From Candidatus Jorgensenbacteria bacterium GW2011_GWB1_50_10 (GTDB lineage Bacteria; Patescibacteriota; Minisyncoccia; UBA6257; GWB1-50-10): 64,000 nt of DNA. The position numbers were made by a program, and so were the translations under genes. The notes under the pieces are model-generated. The model worked only from the letters and a program-made list of their open reading frames with translations. It did not search any database and was not told the origin of the DNA. The stretch is taken from assembly GCA_001004105.1 (NCBI GenBank), contig LCQK01000001.1, positions 166,928 through 230,927 on the forward strand, read 5' to 3'. Positions 5,849-61,914 of the stretch are shown one piece after another; position 1 is the first letter of the stretch, and each line of letters begins with the position of its first letter.

Positions 5849-5999
5849 ATGTTGAAATTATTACACGATTTGTTAAGATACATCAAGCGATATGGACCGC
5901 AAAGAATTAATCAGGACAGTCTATCTTTATCTTTTCTCGCTGGGAGCGAAAGGAGAAAAACGCCTCGGCGTTTAGAATTCCTCAATTAAAAATAAATAT

Positions 6000-6073
6000 C
6001 CCCCTATAGCTCAGTCCGGTAGAGCAGCTCCCTTTTAAGGAGATGGTCCCAGGTTCAAATCCTGGTGGGGGGA
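6000..6073 (+). tRNA. tRNA-Lys (anticodon TTT)
   Basis: CCCCCTA TA GCTC AGTCCGGTA GAGC A GCTCC CTTTTAA GGAGA TGGTC CCAGG TTCAAAT CCTGG TGGGGGG A. Confidence 0.85.
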
Positions 6074-6103
6074 CAAGAGATTGGGGTATTTATTTTTGCC
6101 TCA

Positions 6104-6157
6104 CTGCCATCTGATAAGGAGATGGTCGTAGGTTCAAATCCTACACGGGGGACAAGA
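6104..6157 (+). pseudogene. Partial duplicate of the tRNA-Lys 3' half (anticodon-arm 3' side, T-arm, acceptor 3' strand) with compensatory T-stem changes
   Basis: TAAGGAGATGGTC-GTAGG-TTCAAATCC-TACAC-GGGGGACAAGA vs tRNA TAAGGAGATGGTC-CCAGG-TTCAAATCC-TGGTG-GGGGGACAAGA; no matching 5' acceptor strand. Confidence 0.5.
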
Positions 6158-10338: not shown

Positions 10339-10384
10339 CTCTTCTATTCACTTTCTCCCATATGGGAGAAAGTGAATAGAAGAG
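10339..10384. repeat. Perfect 46-nt palindrome CTCTTCTATTCACTTTCTCCCATATGGGAGAAAGTGAATAGAAGAG
   Basis: Reverse complement identical; 150 bp upstream of the GC-rich orphan gene 10538..10921. Confidence 0.85.
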
Positions 10385-11037: not shown

Positions 11038-11069
11038 ATTCACTTTATCCCATATGGGATAAAGTGAAT
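11038..11069. repeat. Perfect 32-nt palindrome ATTCACTTTATCCCATATGGGATAAAGTGAAT
   Basis: Reverse complement identical; downstream flank of the orphan gene. Confidence 0.85.
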
Positions 11070-11084
11070 GCTTAGTGAGTATGT

Positions 11085-11848: not shown

Positions 11849-12306
11849 AGCCGGCAAACCGGAGAACGGGCCCCGCAAACCAGAAGGAAAACGGGCCCTT
11901 TTTCTATAATGAAGAGATGGACAAAGAAAAATTACCACCAGAACTCTATCGCGTGGCATATGAGAAAGGCACCGAGGTGCCTTTCACCGGCAAATATGTT
12001 CATGAAAAAGCCGAGGGTATGTACAGGTGCGCCGTCTGCGGCAGCGAACTTTTTTCGTCGGAGGCGAAATTTGATTCCGGCACCGGCTGGCCGAGTTTCA
12101 CCGAGCCGGCCAATTTGAACAATATTGAACTAAAGGAAGATTTAAGCGGAGGCATGCGGCGCACCGAGGTTTTGTGCAGAAAGTGCGGGGCGCACTTGGG
12201 CCATGTTTTTGACGATGGGCCGCGGGACGGGCGCCTGCCTGCCGGCAGGCAGGGCAAGCGTTATTGCATCAACTCCGTTTGTTTGGACCTGGAAAAGAAA
12301 GAGTAG
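11845..12306 (+). CDS. msrB: Peptide-methionine (R)-S-oxide reductase MsrB carrying an in-frame LPAGRQ insertion
   Basis: CxxC...[23 protein letters not shown] MsrB motifs; ATG at 11917 is an alternative start; 6-aa insertion between DG and GKRYCINS encoded by the palindrome. Confidence 0.85.
12234..12253. repeat. 20-nt perfect palindrome CCTGCCTGCCGGCAGGCAGG, in-frame inside msrB (encodes LPAGRQ)
   Basis: Direct read; reverse complement identical; no stop codon in any frame. Confidence 0.9.
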
Positions 12307-12322
12307 TGTGATAAAAACAAAT

Positions 12323-12370
12323 CCCGCCAGTCCATGGACTGGCGGGGCCGCCAGTCCATGGACTGGCGGG
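12323..12370. terminator. Two tandem 24-nt palindromic hairpins (CCGCCAGTCCATGGACTGGCGG twice) between convergent genes
   Basis: Each unit is self-complementary with CCATGG centre; lies between the msrB stop and the minus-strand ORF stop. Confidence 0.45.
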
Positions 12371-25442: not shown

Positions 25443-25526
25443 TGCCCGAGGTGGGAGTCGAACCCACATGTCCTTGCGAACACAGGATTTTGAGTCCTGC
25501 GCGTCTGCCAGTTCCGCCACCCGGGC
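25443..25526 (-). tRNA. tRNA-Leu (anticodon CAA), type II with long variable arm
   Basis: GCCCGGG TG GCGG AACTGGCAGAC GC GCAGGA CTCAAAA TCCTGT var GTTCGCAAGGACATG TGGG TTCGACT CCCA CTCGGGC A. Confidence 0.85.
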
Positions 25527-25545
25527 CTGCCTGCCGGCAGGCAGG
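25526..25545. repeat. 20-nt palindrome CCTGCCTGCCGGCAGGCAGG abutting the 5' end of tRNA-Leu
   Basis: Direct read; first base is shared with the tRNA. Confidence 0.9.
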
Positions 25546-25593
25546 CGAAATTTTATTGATAATGCCACAAATATTGGGTAGAGTAAATATTAT

Positions 25594-35946: not shown

Positions 35947-36130
35947 GAACTTTTATTTTTTACGTCAGACACTCTTCGGCTCGGGCGATTTCGTCCCGCT
36001 TCGGCGGGACTCAACCCTTCGCTCGCTTTAGACCGAGCACTCAAAGCATTGAGTGCTCGGTAGCTCGCTCACCCTAAAGGGCTCCGCCGAAGAATGGTAT
36101 TGAGAGTCTGACTTTAAAAAATAAAAGTTC
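35947..36130 (+). ncRNA. Structured repeat element copy A (about 184 nt): long closing stem, two internal perfect hairpins, conserved cores; second copy at 56176
   Basis: Closing stem GAACTTTTATTTTTTACGTCAGACACTCTTCGGC / GCCGAAGAAT..GAGAGTCTGACTTTAAAAAATAAAAGTTC; inner hairpins GTCCCGC-ttcg-GCGGGAC and CCGAGCACTCAA-agca-TTGAGTGCTCGG; conserved TCAACCCTTCGCTCGCTTTAGA and TAGCTCGCTCACCCTAAAGGGCTCCGCCGAAGAAT. Confidence 0.5.
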
Positions 36131-36400
36131 TGCAGGATTACTTGATTGGTTATTAATTGTTAAACGAAGCGGTTTTTATTAAGGAAACCGACTGTAGGTT
36201 TTTCACGCACTAAGCGAAGCCATTACCCCTGACGGCAACTCTCGGAGGCGAAAAAGATTGGTTCCGCGAAGCGGATTTTTCGCCGAGAGCGTAGCGGTGC
36301 GGCTTGTTGCTGGAGCAAGCCGACACCCGGTGACGGAAGAGGTGATGGCTGAACGATCTTGTTTGATTTTGAGCGTTAAAATAAGGTAAACTTCCTATTA

Positions 36401-54323: not shown

Positions 54324-56168
54324 ATGGCTAATTCCTCGGGAAACAGTAAAGACGTAGTTTACTTCGGCCGGACCGATTTTCGGGGCGAGAACCGGCTCTT
54401 CGGCGTGAAGCGCGCCGATCGGCGCCAGCACATGTATGTTATCGGCAAGACCGGCACCGGCAAGAGCGCGCTCCTGCACAATATGATCGTCCAAGATATT
54501 GCAAACGGCGAAGGCGTTTGCGTCGTTGACCCCCACGGCGAACTCGTTGAGGATATTCTCTCCAAAATTCCCGAGGAGCGGCTAGAGGATGTGATTTATC
54601 TTAATCCGGCCGACACCGAACATTACGTCGGCTTCAACGTGCTGGAGTTGCCGGACCCGAAATACAAACATCTGGTCGCCTCCGGCTTAATGGGAATTTT
54701 CACCAAAATCTGGGCGAATGTCTGGTCGGCGCGGATGGAGTACATCTTGAACAACGCCGTCCTCGCCCTACTGGACACGCCCAATTCCACGCTTTTGGGT
54801 ATTACCCGAATACTCGTTGATAAGGAGTACCGGCAGAAAATTATCGCCAATCTCAAGGACCCGGTGGTGAAGGCCTTTTGGGTTCACGAATACGAAGAAT
54901 GGCAGGATAAATTCCGTAACGAAGCCATCGCTCCCATTCAGAATAAAGTCGGCCAGTTCCTTTCAACCGCCCTCATTAGGAACATTGTGGGGCAGGCCAA
55001 AAGCACGATAGACATTTTTAAAATAATGAACGAGGGAAAAATTTTTATCGTAAATCTTTCTAAAGGCAGAATCGGCGAAGATAATTCTGCTCTCCTTGGA
55101 GCCATGATTATCACCAAAATCCAGCTCTCGGCCATGGAGCGCGTCCGCCTTCCCGAGGAGGAACGGGTGGATTTTTATCTCTATGTCGATGAGTTTCAGA
55201 ATTTCGCGACCGATTCCTTCGCGGGCATTTTGTCGGAGGCCCGCAAATACCGCCTCAATCTGATTTTGGCCCATCAGTACGTGGGCCAGCTCGTGACCGA
55301 AACTTCCACCCGGGTGCGGGATGCCGTTTTCGGCAACGTCGGGACAATGATTATTTTCCGGGTGGGGGCGGCTGATGCTGAATATCTGGAGCCGGAATTT
55401 ACGCCGGAATTCACGATTCAGGATATCGTCAATCTCCCGAACTACCACGTTTATTTGAAACTGATGGTAAACGGCGTGACAAGCCGCCCTTTTTCTTCCC
55501 GGACCCTGCCGCCGTTTAAGGTCCAAGCCTCGCCACTTATCAAGGAAAAAGTGATTGCTTCTTCCGTGAAGCGTTATGGCCGGCCGAGAGTGGTGGTGGA
55601 AGAAGAAATCAACCGCTGGAGCGGGATTATGGCCGGGGAAGGAGGCGCTCCCCCAAGCGGCAAGTATGAAGCGACTTGTTCCATTTGCGGCAAACCGGCG
55701 ATTGTGCCTTTCAAACCCGAGCCGGGCCGGCCGGTTTACTGCAGCGACTGTTTTGCCAAAATTGAGGCCGGCGAACTAAAGCCGCTCCCCGCCAAACTTT
55801 TTACCGGCAAACCTGAAAAGAGATATACAAGCGATTTATCGGCCTTAGGCATTGAATTTGAAGGGTCGCCAAAAAAAGAAACGATGGTGGGTGGGCTCGC
55901 CCGCAACGCTTCGCGTAGCGATGCGGGCGGGGGATTTCTAGAGAGAAGGAACCGGCCCGAAAGAAGAAGATATGAGCGCCCGAGGCAGGGTCCGCCACGG
56001 CCGCAATCCATTATCCGGGAAAGTTCGGTGCCGGAGGAGACCGAGAAGCCACTGGGGCTTAGTGAACTCACGCCTCAAGAGGAAAAAATCAAACCCGAAC
56101 GGAGTAAACCCGAGCCGGACGTGGCCGGTCTCCAAGAAGCGCTCCGAAAGGCGCTGGAGAATAAGTAG
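54324..56168 (+). CDS. VirD4/TraD-type (T4SS coupling protein-like) AAA ATPase with C-terminal zinc ribbon and RG-rich tail
   Basis: Walker A GKTGTGKS, VVDPHGE, Walker B YLYVDEFQNF; C-terminal CSICGK...VYCSDCF; no other T4SS genes in the window. Confidence 0.5.
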   Translation: MANSSGNSKDVVYFGRTDFRGENRLFGVKRADRRQHMYVIGKTGTGKSALLHNMIVQDIANGEGVCVVDPHGELVEDILSKIPEERLEDVIYLNPADTEHYVGFNVLELPDPKYKHLVASGLMGIFTKIWANVWSARMEYILNNAVLALLDTPNSTLLGITRILVDKEYRQKIIANLKDPVVKAFWVHEYEEWQDKFRNEAIAPIQNKVGQFLSTALIRNIVGQAKSTIDIFKIMNEGKIFIVNLSKGRIGEDNSALLGAMIITKIQLSAMERVRLPEEERVDFYLYVDEFQNFATDSFAGILSEARKYRLNLILAHQYVGQLVTETSTRVRDAVFGNVGTMIIFRVGAADAEYLEPEFTPEFTIQDIVNLPNYHVYLKLMVNGVTSRPFSSRTLPPFKVQASPLIKEKVIASSVKRYGRPRVVVEEEINRWSGIMAGEGGAPPSGKYEATCSICGKPAIVPFKPEPGRPVYCSDCFAKIEAGELKPLPAKLFTGKPEKRYTSDLSALGIEFEGSPKKETMVGGLARNASRSDAGGGFLERRNRPERRRYERPRQGPPRPQSIIRESSVPEETEKPLGLSELTPQEEKIKPERSKPEPDVAGLQEALRKALENK

Positions 56169-56175
56169 GGAATTA

Positions 56176-56367
56176 AAACTTCTTTTCTTACGCCAGACAG
56201 CTTCAGCTCGGGCGATTTCCCCCGCCTGTCCATGGGCAGGCGGGGTCAACCCCTCGCTCGCTTTAGATCCGGTGGTATGACGCGTCATACCACCGGATAG
56301 CTCGCTCACCCTAAAGGGCTTCGCCGAAGAATTGAGGGGTAAGTCTGGCGCAAAGAAAAGTAGTTTT
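56176..56367 (+). ncRNA. Structured repeat element copy B (about 192 nt), homolog of copy A with compensatory changes
   Basis: Closing stem AAACTTCTTTTCTTACGCCAGACAGCTTCAGC / GCCGAAGAAT..GTCTGGCGCAAAGAAAAGTAGTTT; hairpins CCCCGCCTG..CAGGCGGGG and TCCGGTGGTATGACG/CGTCATACCACCGGA; same conserved cores as A. Confidence 0.5.
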
Positions 56368-56381
56368 GATAAGAGAAGAAT

Positions 56382-56410
56382 TTGACAAAATCAGATTTAT
56401 CTGATATAAT
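56382..56410 (+). promoter_or_regulatory. Consensus sigma70 promoter TTGACA-17-TATAAT driving the 56507 orphan gene through a hairpin-containing 5'UTR
   Basis: -35 56382..56387, -10 56405..56410; 5'UTR hairpin GGTATAAGA/TCTTATACC; SD CAGGAGG. Confidence 0.55.
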
Positions 56411-56506
56411 TAAAGATAGCACAATGGTATAAGATCACTCTGGTCTTATACCCCTACCAGATGCCCGGACGGGCTCAAAGGGTCGGATGACCCAGGAGGC
56501 ACAGCA

Positions 56507-57016
56507 ATGTCGTTACTGAAAACGATGTCCCCGAGGGAGCAAGAGAGGATTCAACACGAACGGCTCGTGAACCGGGATTTCCCCTGGTTGTGGGCCGTGA
56601 GAAGCGAGTGGGATTTTCCAGCGCAGGAGATGACAGTTCAGTACGCTGGTAAATACAATCCACTTCTCAAGGCGTTTCTTGCCTACAATGACTCCATACT
56701 CAAAGAGATTTGGGTTCGAGTTGAGGTCAAACATCCTCGGGGCAAGGACTACACCGGTTACTCTTTCTCCGCGGTGAGGAAAGTAGACGAACCCCGGGAT
56801 CGCTCTTGGGCGGAGGCGATTTTGTGCAGAGTTCCTTACGGGGGCGTAACTCACCTCGCGATTCTGAGTTACCGTCATCATCAAGACGGCACGGAGGATA
56901 GGAGTAGGCGTCAGGTAACGGTCTATCGGCCGATGAAGCCGGAGATGACCCTCGACGCCTTCCTTCTCGAGGCTGTCGAAGAGGCGGAAAAGAACAAGCC
57001 GCGGGCGTGGAAATAA
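56507..57016 (+). CDS. Hypothetical GC-rich orphan protein (169 aa)
   Basis: Strong promoter, SD and terminator; shares VTVYRPMK with the 10538 protein and NPLLKAFL with the minus-strand ORFs at 4645-5199. Confidence 0.55.
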   Translation: MSLLKTMSPREQERIQHERLVNRDFPWLWAVRSEWDFPAQEMTVQYAGKYNPLLKAFLAYNDSILKEIWVRVEVKHPRGKDYTGYSFSAVRKVDEPRDRSWAEAILCRVPYGGVTHLAILSYRHHQDGTEDRSRRQVTVYRPMKPEMTLDAFLLEAVEEAEKNKPRAWK

Positions 57017-57034: not shown

Positions 57035-57066
57035 GGAGGCGACACGAAAGTGCCGCCTCTTTCTTT
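57035..57066 (+). terminator. Rho-independent terminator
   Basis: GGAGGCG acacgaaagt GCCGCCTC then TTTCTTTTT. Confidence 0.55.
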
Positions 57067-57651
57067 TTATCCTTTCTCCACCCGTTCTACGTAATCGCCG
57101 CTTGCCGTGTTTATGCGGATGATGTCGCCTTCATTGATGAAGAGGGGAACATTTACTTTGGCGCCGGTTTCCAAAGTCACGGTTTTAGTGCCGCCCTGGG
57201 CGGTGTTGCCTTTGACGCCCGGCGGCGCTTCCGTCACTTTCAAGTCCATCTTGACGGGCGGTTCGATATTGATGATTTTTTCGTTGAATTTGAAAGCCCG
57301 TGCCTCGCTGCCCTGTTTCAAATAATTTGCCGCTTCGCCCACGATGTCGGCCTTGAGGGCAAATCTTGATTTGGGATTGCCAGAGACGTGGAACCAGTAC
57401 TCCTGCCTGCCGGCAGGCAGGCGCCGCGCATAAATAAACTCAACCGGAATTATCTCAATATCTGCCTCTTTGAACGAGTCGTTCTGGTGGGCGGCGTATT
57501 CCCGGACCTTGCCGGAAATTAAATTCTTGATTTTGAGCTGGGCCACGGGCTTGCGCTGCTGCATCCGGACGAAGGCGTAGTCCAGTACCTCATACGGCTC
57601 GCCGTCTTTAATGAACAACATCCCGACTTTTAGTTCGTTGTAGGAAAGCAT
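57067..57651 (-). CDS. efp: Elongation factor P carrying an in-frame LPAGRQ insertion
   Basis: 194 aa EF-P; FIYARR-LPAGRQ-EYWFHV where canonical EF-P has a short loop. Confidence 0.9.
   Translation of the reverse strand: MLSYNELKVGMLFIKDGEPYEVLDYAFVRMQQRKPVAQLKIKNLISGKVREYAAHQNDSFKEADIEIIPVEFIYARRLPAGRQEYWFHVSGNPKSRFALKADIVGEAANYLKQGSEARAFKFNEKIINIEPPVKMDLKVTEAPPGVKGNTAQGGTKTVTLETGAKVNVPLFINEGDIIRINTASGDYVERVEKG
57402..57421. repeat. 20-nt palindrome CCTGCCTGCCGGCAGGCAGG in-frame inside efp
   Basis: Direct read, perfect copy. Confidence 0.9.
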
Positions 57652-61876: not shown

Positions 61877-61914
61877 CTATTTCACTTTCTCCCATATGGG
61901 AGAAAGTGAAATAG
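61877..61914. repeat. 38-nt perfect palindrome CTATTTCACTTTCTCCCATATGGGAGAAAGTGAAATAG
   Basis: Reverse complement identical; same family as 10339 and 11038. Confidence 0.85.

What the first reader, a model, noticed from the sequence alone, without database searches (positions are those of the whole stretch)
56176..56367. Copy B of the structured element, with compensatory base changes, upstream of a consensus promoter
The closing stem ACGCCAGACAGCTTCAGC / GCCGAAGAAT..GTCTGGCG differs from copy A (ACGTCAGACACTCTTCGGC / GCCGAAGAAT..GTCTGAC) by paired substitutions. The outer AT-rich stem (AAACTTCTTTTCTT / AAAGAAAAGTAGTTT) is also re-invented. Inner hairpin 1 becomes CCCCGCCTG..CAGGCGGGG and hairpin 2 becomes TCCGGTGGTATGACG / CGTCATACCACCGGA, both perfect palindromes. 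The cores TCAACCCCTCGCTCGCTTTAGA and TAGCTCGCTCACCCTAAAGGGCTTCGCCGAAGAAT are near-identical to copy A. Copy B sits 15 nt upstream of a TTGACA-17-TATAAT promoter driving a GC-rich orphan gene.
Basis: seen in the sequence. Interest (0 to 1): 0.8.

Follow-up and report, generated by a model that had tools for sequence, protein, structure and literature searches.

The report
Structured intergenic repeat after gene ends
Copy B is a real member of a previously undescribed, about 190-base non-coding repeat that folds into a branched hairpin structure just after the ends of genes in a few groundwater Patescibacteria, and it has no link to the promoter and gene next to it.

Summary
The sequence features are real. 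Window 56176-56367 (copy B) and 35947-36130 (copy A) share about 60 invariant linker bases, while the stems between them differ but stay paired. The window comes from Candidatus Jorgensenbacteria GW2011_GWA1_48_13.

Exact-pattern scans found only two more intact copies, in two other Patescibacteria (L001, L004). The same scaffold also holds a degenerate copy (C) and a fragment of another copy (D). RNAalifold predicts 59 pairs, 24 of them with changes on both sides. No Rfam family matches.

All five placed copies lie just 3' of a gene and point the same way as that gene. Close relatives (75-83% identical orthologues) lack the element at both loci.

The element is not tied to the promoter or the gene. 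The TTGACA-17-TATAAT promoter lies downstream of it. The "orphan" belongs to a protein family of about 160 aa that has its own conserved leader, and the homologue loci carry no element.

Best reading: a new repeat of the ERIC/BIME/Correia kind that lives in 3' UTRs, is gained and lost as a unit, and probably acts as RNA (processing or stability). A free-standing functional RNA and a purely DNA-level element remain open. The family is small and its function is unproven.

The parts
56175..56367 (+). Copy B of the repeat, whole element. It starts 7 nt after the TAG stop (56166-56168) of the VirD4/TraD-like ATPase gene.
   Evidence: fold z = -8.6; nhmmer E = 2e-53; model R1, 190.3 bits.
56175..56198 (+). 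5' strand of the terminal helix: pyrimidine-rich arm AAAACT-T-CTTTTCTT, then A, then CGCCAGAC.
   Evidence: Pairs with 56343-56367. In helix 1, 11 of 21 pairs change on both sides across the copies.
56343..56367 (+). 3' strand of the terminal helix: GTCTGGCG, then CA, then purine-rich arm AAGAAAAG-T-AGTTTT.
56201..56207 (+). Helix P1b, 5' strand CTTCAGC. It pairs with GCCGAAG at 56323-56329, with an A.C mismatch in this copy.
   Evidence: Columns 32/166 of alignment A3 read G-C (A), A.C (B), G.U (L001), A-U (L004).
56208..56219 (+). Invariant linker J1, TCGGGCGATTTC.
   Evidence: Identical in all four intact copies. Predicted to pair CGGGCGA:TCGCTCG, but that helix never varies and so is untested (helix 3).
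56220..56245 (+). Variable hairpin 1, CCCCGCCTG-TCCATGGG-CAGGCGGGG.
   Evidence: Different sequence and length in each copy but always paired (helix 4). 87% identical to a tandem palindrome at 12324-12370 (family D5).
56246..56267 (+). Invariant linker J2, TCAACCCCTCGCTCGCTTTAGA.
   Evidence: One C/T difference among the four copies.
56268..56297 (+). Variable hairpin 2, a perfect 30-nt palindrome TCCGGTGGTATGACG|CGTCATACCACCGGA.
   Evidence: In helix 5, 8 of 13 pairs change on both sides. L001 carries nearly the same hairpin.
56298..56322 (+). Invariant linker J3 (TAGCTCGCTCA), small hairpin 3 (CCC-TAAA-GGG) and CTTC.
   Evidence: In L004 the loop of hairpin 3 carries an extra GCCCC-UUCG-GGGGC hairpin.
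56330..56342 (+). Variable 3' internal loop, AATTGAGGGGTAA.
   Evidence: Differs in every copy. It is complementary to J2 only in copy B (-14.6 kcal/mol, 3 of 500 shuffles), not in A, L001 or L004.
35947..36130 (+). Copy A of the repeat. It starts 2 nt after the stop of a cupredoxin-like gene and lies 270 nt upstream of dnaG.
   Evidence: z = -8.7; 205.7 bits.
56382..56410 (+). Sigma-70-type promoter TTGACA-17-TATAAT with TG. This is a neighbour of the repeat, not part of it.
   Evidence: 12 of 12 matches. A TTGACA promoter-like box also precedes the homologous genes in L100 and L101, which have no repeat.

Best explanation
Copy B belongs to a small, previously undescribed family of non-coding mosaic palindromic repeats, 180-195 nt long. 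The family is seen so far in three Patescibacteria genomes.

Shown:
- Every placed copy lies directly 3' of a gene and in that gene's orientation.
- Each copy can fold into a terminal helix of about 19-22 bp (a pyrimidine-rich 5' arm and purine-rich 3' arm, plus CCAGAC/GUCUGG) and a 7-bp helix (CUUCRGC/GCYGAAG).
- These helices close a branched core with two long, freely replaceable hairpins, a small third hairpin and about 60 invariant linker bases.
- The element is present or absent as a unit between close relatives, and it decays in place (copy C).

Inferred:
- It is carried on read-through transcripts of the upstream gene and acts in cis as RNA.
- The two-turn perfect terminal helix would serve as a site for double-strand-specific processing (RNase III type), as a block to 3' exonucleases, or both. 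That would mark the end of the upstream transcription unit before the next promoter.
- The invariant linkers would be the binding site of whatever factor uses or propagates the element.
- It spreads or is lost as a non-autonomous repeat.

It is not a leader or regulator of the neighbouring promoter and gene.
For: - Family and structure: there are four intact distinct copies (A, B, L001, L004). Their folds score z = -8.6 and -8.7. RNAalifold gives 59 pairs, 24 of them changed on both sides. 96.5% of cells pair, against 38-47% for slid partners, and 0 of 500 shuffles reach the observed values.
- Linkers: they are invariant while the stems are saturated with change.
- Position: all five placed copies sit 0-58 nt after the stop codon of the left-hand gene and share its orientation. 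No promoter-like site lies upstream of A or B.
- Sense strand: there are two C(UUCG)G tetraloops on the given strand (hairpin 1 of A, hairpin 3 of L004). L001 has G.U pairs.
- Repeat behaviour: one scaffold holds at least four copies or variants, including a decayed copy C that contains another dispersed palindrome, and a scaffold gap that exposes the 5' end of a copy D.
- Presence/absence: relatives with 75-83% identical ATPase and DnaG orthologues lack the element at both loci. The ATPase-efp spacer is 121, 30 or 7 nt in relatives against 898 nt here. The spacer before dnaG is 205 or 275 nt against 456 nt here. The model finds nothing in about 127 kb of relatives' DNA.
- Neighbourhood: no transposase, reverse transcriptase or integrase is nearby.
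Against: - No expression data exist, so transcription, strand and processing are all inferred.
- The opposite strand folds 2.6-7.8 kcal/mol better in all four copies.
- Stems are almost free of G.U pairs, and some are palindromic through the loop. Correction of DNA palindromes by template switching would give the same picture without any selection on RNA.
- A stabiliser or processing site would not obviously need about 60 invariant unpaired bases.
- Two predicted core helices never vary, so they are untested (helices 3 and 6).
- Only four intact sequences are known. Covariation counts from four related sequences are weak statistics.
- No target-site duplication or mobilising gene was seen.
Confidence: 0.4

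Rival explanations
1. A free-standing functional RNA. The long terminal helix only serves to excise a core of about 140 nt from read-through transcripts, as processing stems do for rRNA. The invariant linkers would form a catalytic, ligand-binding or protein-binding core, for example a new self-cleaving ribozyme, an aptamer or a protein sponge.
For: - About 60 linker bases are identical in copies from three species whose ribosomal proteins are only about 60-67% identical, while every stem has changed yet stays paired. That pattern is typical of ribozymes and aptamers.
- The core is branched, and hairpins tolerate insertions (hairpin 3 in L004).
- UUCG tetraloops are present.
- No Rfam family matches, so it would be new.
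Against: - Distribution is extremely patchy. Exact-core scans of 185,579 species genomes and of the JGI metagenome contigs found only two other organisms.
- Close relatives lack it.
- One genome holds several copies, one of them decayed. This fits a dispensable repeat better than a needed RNA gene.
- No conserved tertiary pairing was found. The linker-to-loop pairing holds only in copy B.
- The hammerhead-like CUGAAGA is present in 2 of 4 copies and lies inside a helix.
Confidence: 0.25
2. A DNA-level element. It would be either a non-autonomous transposon (MITE-like, with CCAGAC...GTCTGG and the arms as terminal inverted repeats, moved by an enzyme encoded elsewhere) or a protein-binding or recombination site. 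Its RNA fold would be a by-product of DNA palindromes.
For: - It has terminal inverted repeats and several copies per genome.
- It shows presence/absence differences at two loci relative to close relatives.
- A decayed copy exists.
- Both strands fold equally well.
- Hairpin 2 of copy B is a perfect 30-nt palindrome, and hairpin 1 is palindromic through its CCATGG centre. It resembles a dispersed palindrome elsewhere in the genome.
- Copies lie at gene 3' ends, where insertions are tolerated.
Against: - No target-site duplication and no shared flank was found.
- No transposase lies within about 80 kb.
- Copies differ most in the terminal repeats and least in the interior. That is the reverse of what recognition of transposon ends predicts.
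- All 5 placed copies share the orientation of the left-hand gene, and UUCG loops point to one strand.
- There are no hits in phage, plasmid or viral collections.
Confidence: 0.25
3. A Rho-dependent terminator module: C-rich unpaired linkers held between hairpins would load Rho once ribosomes leave at the nearby stop codon.
For: - The linkers are pyrimidine-rich and C-rich: TCAACCCYTCGCTCGCTTT and TAGCTCGCTCACCC.
- The element sits directly after stop codons and before the next promoter or tRNA.
- It has no canonical intrinsic-terminator features of its own.
Against: - Known Rho loading sites are poorly conserved in sequence, from my own knowledge. Exact invariance and a closing helix of more than 20 bp are not expected for them.
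- Ordinary intrinsic terminators exist in this genome, for example 57035-57068 after the next gene.
- The presence of rho in this genome was not checked.
Confidence: 0.05
4. A cis-regulatory element of the downstream gene: an upstream activating sequence, leader or attenuator for the 'orphan' gene.
For: The element ends 14 nt before the -35 box, so its A-rich 3' arm lies where upstream promoter elements sit.
Against: - The element lies upstream of the promoter, so it is not in that mRNA.
- The other four copies have unrelated downstream features.
- Homologues of the gene keep their own promoter-like box and a conserved leader but have no element.
Confidence: 0.04

Closest known systems
ERIC (enterobacterial repetitive intergenic consensus, also called IRU) elements
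   Same: Both are non-coding imperfect palindromes of 100-200 nt found in transcribed intergenic regions. Copy number differs between related genomes, and the stems are kept paired. (The properties of ERIC are from my own knowledge.)
   Different: There is no sequence similarity: blastn against 5,426 E. coli genomes finds nothing. The host phylum differs. This element is branched, with three hairpins and about 60 invariant unpaired bases, and is not a single long hairpin. All copies seen so far share the orientation of the upstream gene.
BIME/REP mosaic elements of Enterobacteria
   Same: Both are a mosaic of palindromic units separated by conserved linker motifs, located at the 3' ends of genes. 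REP elements are known to stabilise upstream mRNA (my own knowledge). This genome also carries simple dispersed palindromes, and one of them resembles hairpin 1 of copy B.
   Different: Here the linkers are invariant and the palindromes vary, which is the reverse of REP. A long terminal inverted repeat encloses the whole unit. No RAYT-type transposase was seen in the roughly 80 kb examined. There is no sequence similarity.
Correia (NEMIS) elements of Neisseria and other bacterial MITEs
   Same: All are small non-autonomous repeats with terminal inverted repeats. They are co-transcribed with neighbouring genes and fold into long hairpins that RNase III cuts (my own knowledge). They also show presence/absence differences between relatives.
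   Different: Correia elements have conserved 26-bp terminal repeats and a TA duplication. In this element the terminal arms are the most variable part, and no duplication is seen. The copy number seen so far is a handful, not hundreds.
RNase III processing stems around rRNA, and intervening sequences in 23S rRNA
   Same: Both have a helix of about two turns formed by sequences that flank a structured RNA. The intervening sequences also occur sporadically (my own knowledge).
   Different: This element lies in mRNA 3' regions, not in rRNA operons. Cleavage has not been shown.

Membership tests
Any Rfam 15 family | Covariance-model score at or above the family's gathering threshold. | tested here: not met
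   Only tRNAs reach threshold in the window. The best hits over 55900-56600 have E = 3-10 and lie far below threshold. L001 and L004 give only a tRNA.
MITE (non-autonomous transposon) | Terminal inverted repeats. | tested here: met
   The arms plus CCAGAC/GTCTGG pair in all intact copies. However, the arms differ between copies.
MITE (non-autonomous transposon) | Direct target-site duplication flanking each copy. | tested here: not met
   No direct repeat was seen at the boundaries, and no significant similarity was found between flanks of different copies (sequences).
MITE (non-autonomous transposon) | A cognate autonomous element or transposase with the same ends. | not testable with these tools
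   None in the window or in 16 kb of extensions. The rest of the genome could not be read.
MITE (non-autonomous transposon) | Several copies, with presence/absence differences between relatives. | tested here: met
   Copies A, B, C and D lie on one scaffold. The element is absent at both orthologous loci in relatives.
REP/BIME | Sequence similarity to REP units, and association with a RAYT transposase. | tested here: not met
   No blastn match in E. coli genomes. No RAYT-like gene in the DNA examined.
Riboswitch or 5' leader | Lies between a promoter and the regulated gene, and is linked to one gene family. | tested here: not met
   The promoter is 3' of the element. Downstream features differ in every copy. 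Homologues of the downstream gene lack it.
Intrinsic terminator | GC-rich hairpin directly followed by a run of U. | tested here: not met
   The scan finds no terminator-like site on the + strand at either copy. The arms run T-rich then A-rich, which is the reverse of a bidirectional terminator.
Known self-cleaving ribozymes (hammerhead and others) | Conserved catalytic core, for example CUGANGA...GAAA around three helices. | tested here: not met
   No Rfam ribozyme hit. CUGAAGA occurs only in L001 and L004; A and B read CCGAAGA. It is the 3' strand of helix P1b.
6S RNA, tmRNA or tRNA-like RNA | Match to the family model. | tested here: not met
   Rfam and ARAGORN find nothing at either copy.
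Structured RNA in general | Base pairs kept through changes on both sides. | tested here: met
   24 of 59 pairs meet this, and 0 of 500 shuffles reach the observed values. The test cannot separate RNA pairing from DNA palindromes.
Structured RNA in general | Evidence that one particular strand is the functional one. | tested here: inconclusive
   For the + strand: two C(UUCG)G loops, G.U pairs in L001, and 5 of 5 copies in the orientation of the upstream gene. Against: the minus strand folds slightly better in all four copies, and copy B has an A.C mismatch that would be G.U on the other strand.

The most novel reading that the evidence does not exclude
The invariant core of about 60 nt, held by replaceable helices, is the active site of a new class of catalytic or ligand-binding RNA. 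One example would be a self-cleaving ribozyme that processes the 3' ends of mRNAs. The RNA would be carried on a small mobile repeat in ultra-small groundwater bacteria.
Probability: 0.12. Interest if true: 0.85.

Novelty: new variant of a known kind. Interest (0 to 1): 0.5.

Why it matters
Patescibacteria have tiny, tightly packed genomes, and very little is known about their non-coding elements. A multi-copy, structure-conserving repeat at gene ends shows that these genomes still tolerate or use such elements. It also offers a handle on how their transcripts are ended and processed.

The pattern of invariant linkers and replaceable stems is stronger than in typical bacterial repeats. It makes the element a reasonable candidate for biochemical testing. 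On the practical side, the repeat breaks assemblies: it sits at a scaffold gap in one public assembly.

Tried and rejected
- Known RNA families: Rfam at gathering and at E <= 10 gave nothing.
- Phage, plasmid and E. coli collections: no blastn match.
- Viral contigs: four pattern scans gave only chance hits. None contained a second core, and none scored with the model.
- Literature: no paper contains the core strings, and no relevant Patescibacteria RNA motif paper turned up.
- Link to the 'orphan' gene: rejected.
- Pseudoknot between linker J2 and the 3' internal loop: significant only in copy B, so not a family feature.
- Pairing of GCUUUAG with CUAAAG: contradicted by the hairpin insertion in L004.
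- Coding potential: hairpin lengths of 13, 17, 18 and 26 nt break any reading frame. The minus-strand ORFs share only the peptide that the linker encodes.
- Shared flanks, or a carried-over piece of the ATPase gene in L001: looked plausible by eye but is not significant.
- A decayed copy at the dnaG locus of L097: not significant (364 of 500 shuffles).
- A recurring AAAACTTTT...CGYCA 'target' motif: a loose version is common in coding DNA, so it is uninformative.
- Function of the neighbouring protein: a single-sequence model was poor (pLDDT 46). The model built with an alignment is good (pLDDT 89), but it has no PDB neighbour and no Pfam or PHROG match. The afdb50 library was not available.

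Full report
**Observation.** Both conserved cores occur exactly twice in the window, at 36011/56246 and 36061/56298, with one mismatch each. Shuffled sequence gives none. As single strands, copy B (56176-56367) folds at -96.4 kcal/mol and copy A at -87.9 kcal/mol. These are z-scores of -8.6 and -8.7, and none of 200 shuffles does as well. The promoter TTGACA-17-TATAAT, with a TG upstream of the -10 box, is at 56382-56410, 14 nt after the element. Two details need correction. Only one A-to-B difference in the closing stem is truly compensated (U-A to C-G). The G-to-A change at 56205 leaves an A.C mismatch in copy B.

**Source and relatives of the element.** Names given by public sources identify the window as Candidatus Jorgensenbacteria GW2011_GWA1_48_13. 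It covers roughly positions 166.7-230.7 kb of a 238,587-bp scaffold. An exact two-core pattern was scanned over one genome per species for 185,579 species, and it found one locus, L001, labelled a Saccharibacteria MAG. A similar scan of the JGI metagenome contigs found three copies identical to L001 and one new copy, L004. Viral contigs, phages, plasmids and E. coli genomes gave nothing real. No Rfam family matches any copy, and the core strings appear in no searchable paper. The L7/L12 protein of L004 is 67% identical to that of a Jorgensenbacteria-like relative, so the carriers are related but distinct species.

**Anatomy.** Aligning the four distinct intact copies gives the following plan:
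- A terminal helix of 19-22 bp, made of a pyrimidine-rich 5' arm and a purine-rich 3' arm plus CCAGAC/GUCUGG.
- A 7-bp helix, CUUCRGC/GCYGAAG.
- Invariant linker UCGGGCGAUUUC, then variable hairpin 1.
- Invariant linker (C)UCAACCCYUCGCUCGCUUUAGA, then variable hairpin 2.
- Invariant UAGCUCGCUCA, then a small hairpin CCC-UAAA-GGG, whose loop carries an extra GCCCC-UUCG-GGGGC hairpin in L004.
- CUYC, followed by a variable 3' internal loop.

RNAalifold predicts 59 pairs, 24 of which change on both sides. In the pair count, 96.5% of cells are paired, against 38-47% when partners are slid, and no shuffle of 500 reaches any observed measure. The covariation sits in the terminal helix, hairpins 1 and 2, and one position of the 7-bp helix (G-C, G.U, A-U, and A.C in copy B). 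The two predicted helices made only of invariant linker bases cannot be tested with these data (helices 3 and 6). A candidate pseudoknot between the second linker and the 3' loop holds only in copy B.

**RNA or DNA, and which strand.** Covariation proves pairing but not the molecule. The opposite strand folds 2.6-7.8 kcal/mol better in all four copies. G.U pairs are rare. Hairpin 2 of copy B is a perfect 30-nt palindrome. Hairpin 1 of copy B is 87% identical to a tandem palindrome at 12324-12370. Three things favour the given strand as RNA:
- Two canonical C(UUCG)G tetraloops are among roughly six distinct tetraloops (hairpin 1 of A, hairpin 3 of L004).
- L001 has G.U pairs.
- Every placed copy points the same way as the gene on its left.

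I treat the sense-RNA reading as favoured, not shown.

**Context.** Copy A starts 2 nt after the stop of a cupredoxin-like gene, and dnaG-rpoD follows 270 nt later. Copy B starts 7 nt after the stop of a VirD4/TraD-like ATPase gene. The L001 copy lies 58 nt after a GMP-synthase-like gene and before a quinone oxidoreductase-like gene; both names are my reading of the ORF translations. The L004 copy starts at the stop codon of rplL and ends about 20 nt before tRNA-Val. Neither A nor B has a promoter-like site upstream or a terminator-like site of its own. The window is otherwise housekeeping DNA: ribonucleotide reductase, an ABC transporter, a copper ATPase, SOD, ParAB, RelA/SpoT, GroEL, ribosomal proteins, EF-P and ComEC. 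It has no transposase, reverse transcriptase or integrase.

**Gain, loss and decay.** The closest relatives lack the element at both loci.
- Locus B: the ATPase orthologue is 80-83% identical in the relatives, and the ATPase gene and the convergent efp gene are 121, 30 or 7 nt apart. Here the spacer is 898 nt.
- Locus A: DnaG is 74-75% identical in the relatives, and the spacer between the cupredoxin-like gene and dnaG is 205 or 275 nt. Here it is 456 nt, that is, 184 nt of element plus about 270 nt.
- Neither nhmmer nor the covariance model R1 finds a copy in about 127 kb of relatives' DNA.
- At locus B, two relatives keep only the first ~24 nt after the stop codon: TTAAAACTTTTTCCGCCAG against TTAAAACTTCTTTTCTTACGCCAG here (2 of 500 shuffles). 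This may be a remnant.

Extending the scaffold by 8 kb on each side turned up a third copy, C, which is degenerate (L104 2366-2592; 18.2 bits). It begins 4 nt after the stop of a Na+/H+ exchanger-like gene and ends at the stop of a convergent gene. It keeps both arms, CGCCAGAC, CTTCGGCTCG and hairpin 1. It has lost the invariant linkers and now contains one of the genome's simple dispersed palindromes. Its fold is unremarkable (z = -2.6). In another public assembly of the same scaffold, copy B is interrupted by a 10-N gap followed by the 5' end of a further copy, D. Flanks outside the arms share nothing between copies.

**The promoter and the 'orphan' gene.** A word-indexed search found only the gene itself. 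A full phmmer search of 1.84 billion representative proteins found 35 remote homologues of about 160 aa, with a conserved RLVNxDFPWLWAVR motif. None has a Pfam or PHROG match. A confident model (pLDDT 89) has no PDB neighbour. One homologue also sits convergent to efp. Homologue loci with upstream sequence have a TTGACA promoter-like box and a conserved leader but no copy of the repeat. The leader reads CCCGGAYGGG, then UCAAAG, then a second GGAY hairpin that shows a compensatory change in L101, then AGGAGG. The promoter, leader and gene therefore form a unit of their own that happens to lie next to copy B.

**Interpretation.** The evidence fits a repeat family that lives at gene 3' ends, is gained and lost as a unit, decays when not maintained, and keeps a precise structure. 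The closest known kinds are ERIC, BIME/REP and Correia elements. These are co-transcribed with neighbouring genes and act on mRNA stability or are cut by RNase III (my own knowledge of those families). I therefore favour a cis-acting 3'-UTR RNA structure whose two-turn terminal helix is a processing or stability element (confidence 0.4).

What does not fit a plain repeat is the distribution of change. The ends are the most variable part, and about 60 unpaired interior bases are invariant across species. This keeps two rivals alive:
- A free-standing functional RNA, excised by the terminal helix (0.25).
- A DNA-level element whose linkers are protein-binding sites (0.25).

A Rho-loading module (0.05) and a regulator of the downstream gene (0.04) are unlikely. 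With only four intact sequences and no expression data, the function is inferred, not shown.

Noticed in passing
window 56459-56506; also L100 ~228-285, L098 1-33, L101 ~5955-6000: A conserved 5' leader lies in front of the 'orphan' protein family. It has two short hairpins with GGAY loops (CCC-GGAC-GGG, then UCAAAG, then GGGUC-GGAU-GACCC), followed directly by AGGAGG and the start codon. It is nearly identical between loci whose proteins are only about 40% identical. In L101 the second stem changes on both sides (AGC/GCU). Rfam gives no hit. It may be a new cis-regulatory RNA.
   Followed up: partly
window 56507-57016: The 'orphan' belongs to an uncharacterised protein family of about 160 aa with an RLVNxDFPWLWAVR motif and conserved W and YR positions. 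It has 35 remote homologues, a confident AlphaFold model (pLDDT 89), no Pfam or PHROG match and no PDB fold neighbour. A 41%-identical homologue also lies convergent to efp (L098).
   Followed up: partly
L104 2366-2592 (same scaffold, about 5.5 kb left of the window start): Degenerate third copy of the repeat. The arms, CGCCAGAC, CTTCGGCTCG and hairpin 1 are kept. The invariant linkers are lost, and a dispersed palindrome TTTCAATTTATCCCATATGGGAGAAAATGAAA sits inside it.
   Followed up: yes
L102 2779-2835 (another assembly of the same scaffold): A 10-N scaffold gap lies inside copy B. It is followed by 47 nt that are the 5' end of a different copy (AAAGGAGGAAATTTTCTTTCTTCTCCCAGACGGCTTCGGCTCGGGCGATTC). 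The repeat evidently confuses assembly, and at least one more copy or variant exists in the population.
   Followed up: partly
L091 11825-11848 and L092 8588-8611: In relatives that lack the element, the first ~24 nt after the ATPase stop codon still resemble the 5' arm plus CGCCAG of copy B (2 of 500 shuffles). This could be a remnant of an ancestral copy or the original target sequence.
   Followed up: partly
window 36215-36355: A second structured stretch lies between copy A and dnaG. It has a long-range helix GCCATTACCCCTGACGG / CCGGTGACGGAAGAGGTGATGGC enclosing two hairpins; region 36133-36400 folds with z = -4.0. A 30-nt piece recurs inverted in the relative L097. It may be a dnaG leader.
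   Followed up: partly
window 12324-12370, 1789-1822, 10346-10379, 11038-11071, 61880-61913, 25523-25547 and others: The genome carries several families of simple dispersed perfect palindromes: CCGCCAGTCCATGGACTGGCGG (tandem pair), TTTCACTTTCTCCCATATGGGAGAAAGTGAAA (5 copies) and GCCTGCCTGCCGGCAGGCAGGC (9 copies).
   Followed up: partly
window 57399-57423 and 12231-12255: Copies of the GCCTGCCTGCCGGCAGGCAGGC palindrome lie inside coding regions (efp and an MsrB-like gene), where they encode LPAGRQ. This recalls palindromic elements that sit in frame within genes.
   Followed up: no
window 6115-6157: An 86%-identical duplicate of the 3' half of tRNA-Lys (6036-6078) lies 79 nt downstream of the tRNA. 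Its T-stem has changed on both sides (CCAGG/CCTGG to GTAGG/CCTAC). ARAGORN and Rfam do not call it a tRNA. It could be a relic of an integration site or an unusual tRNA-like element.
   Followed up: no
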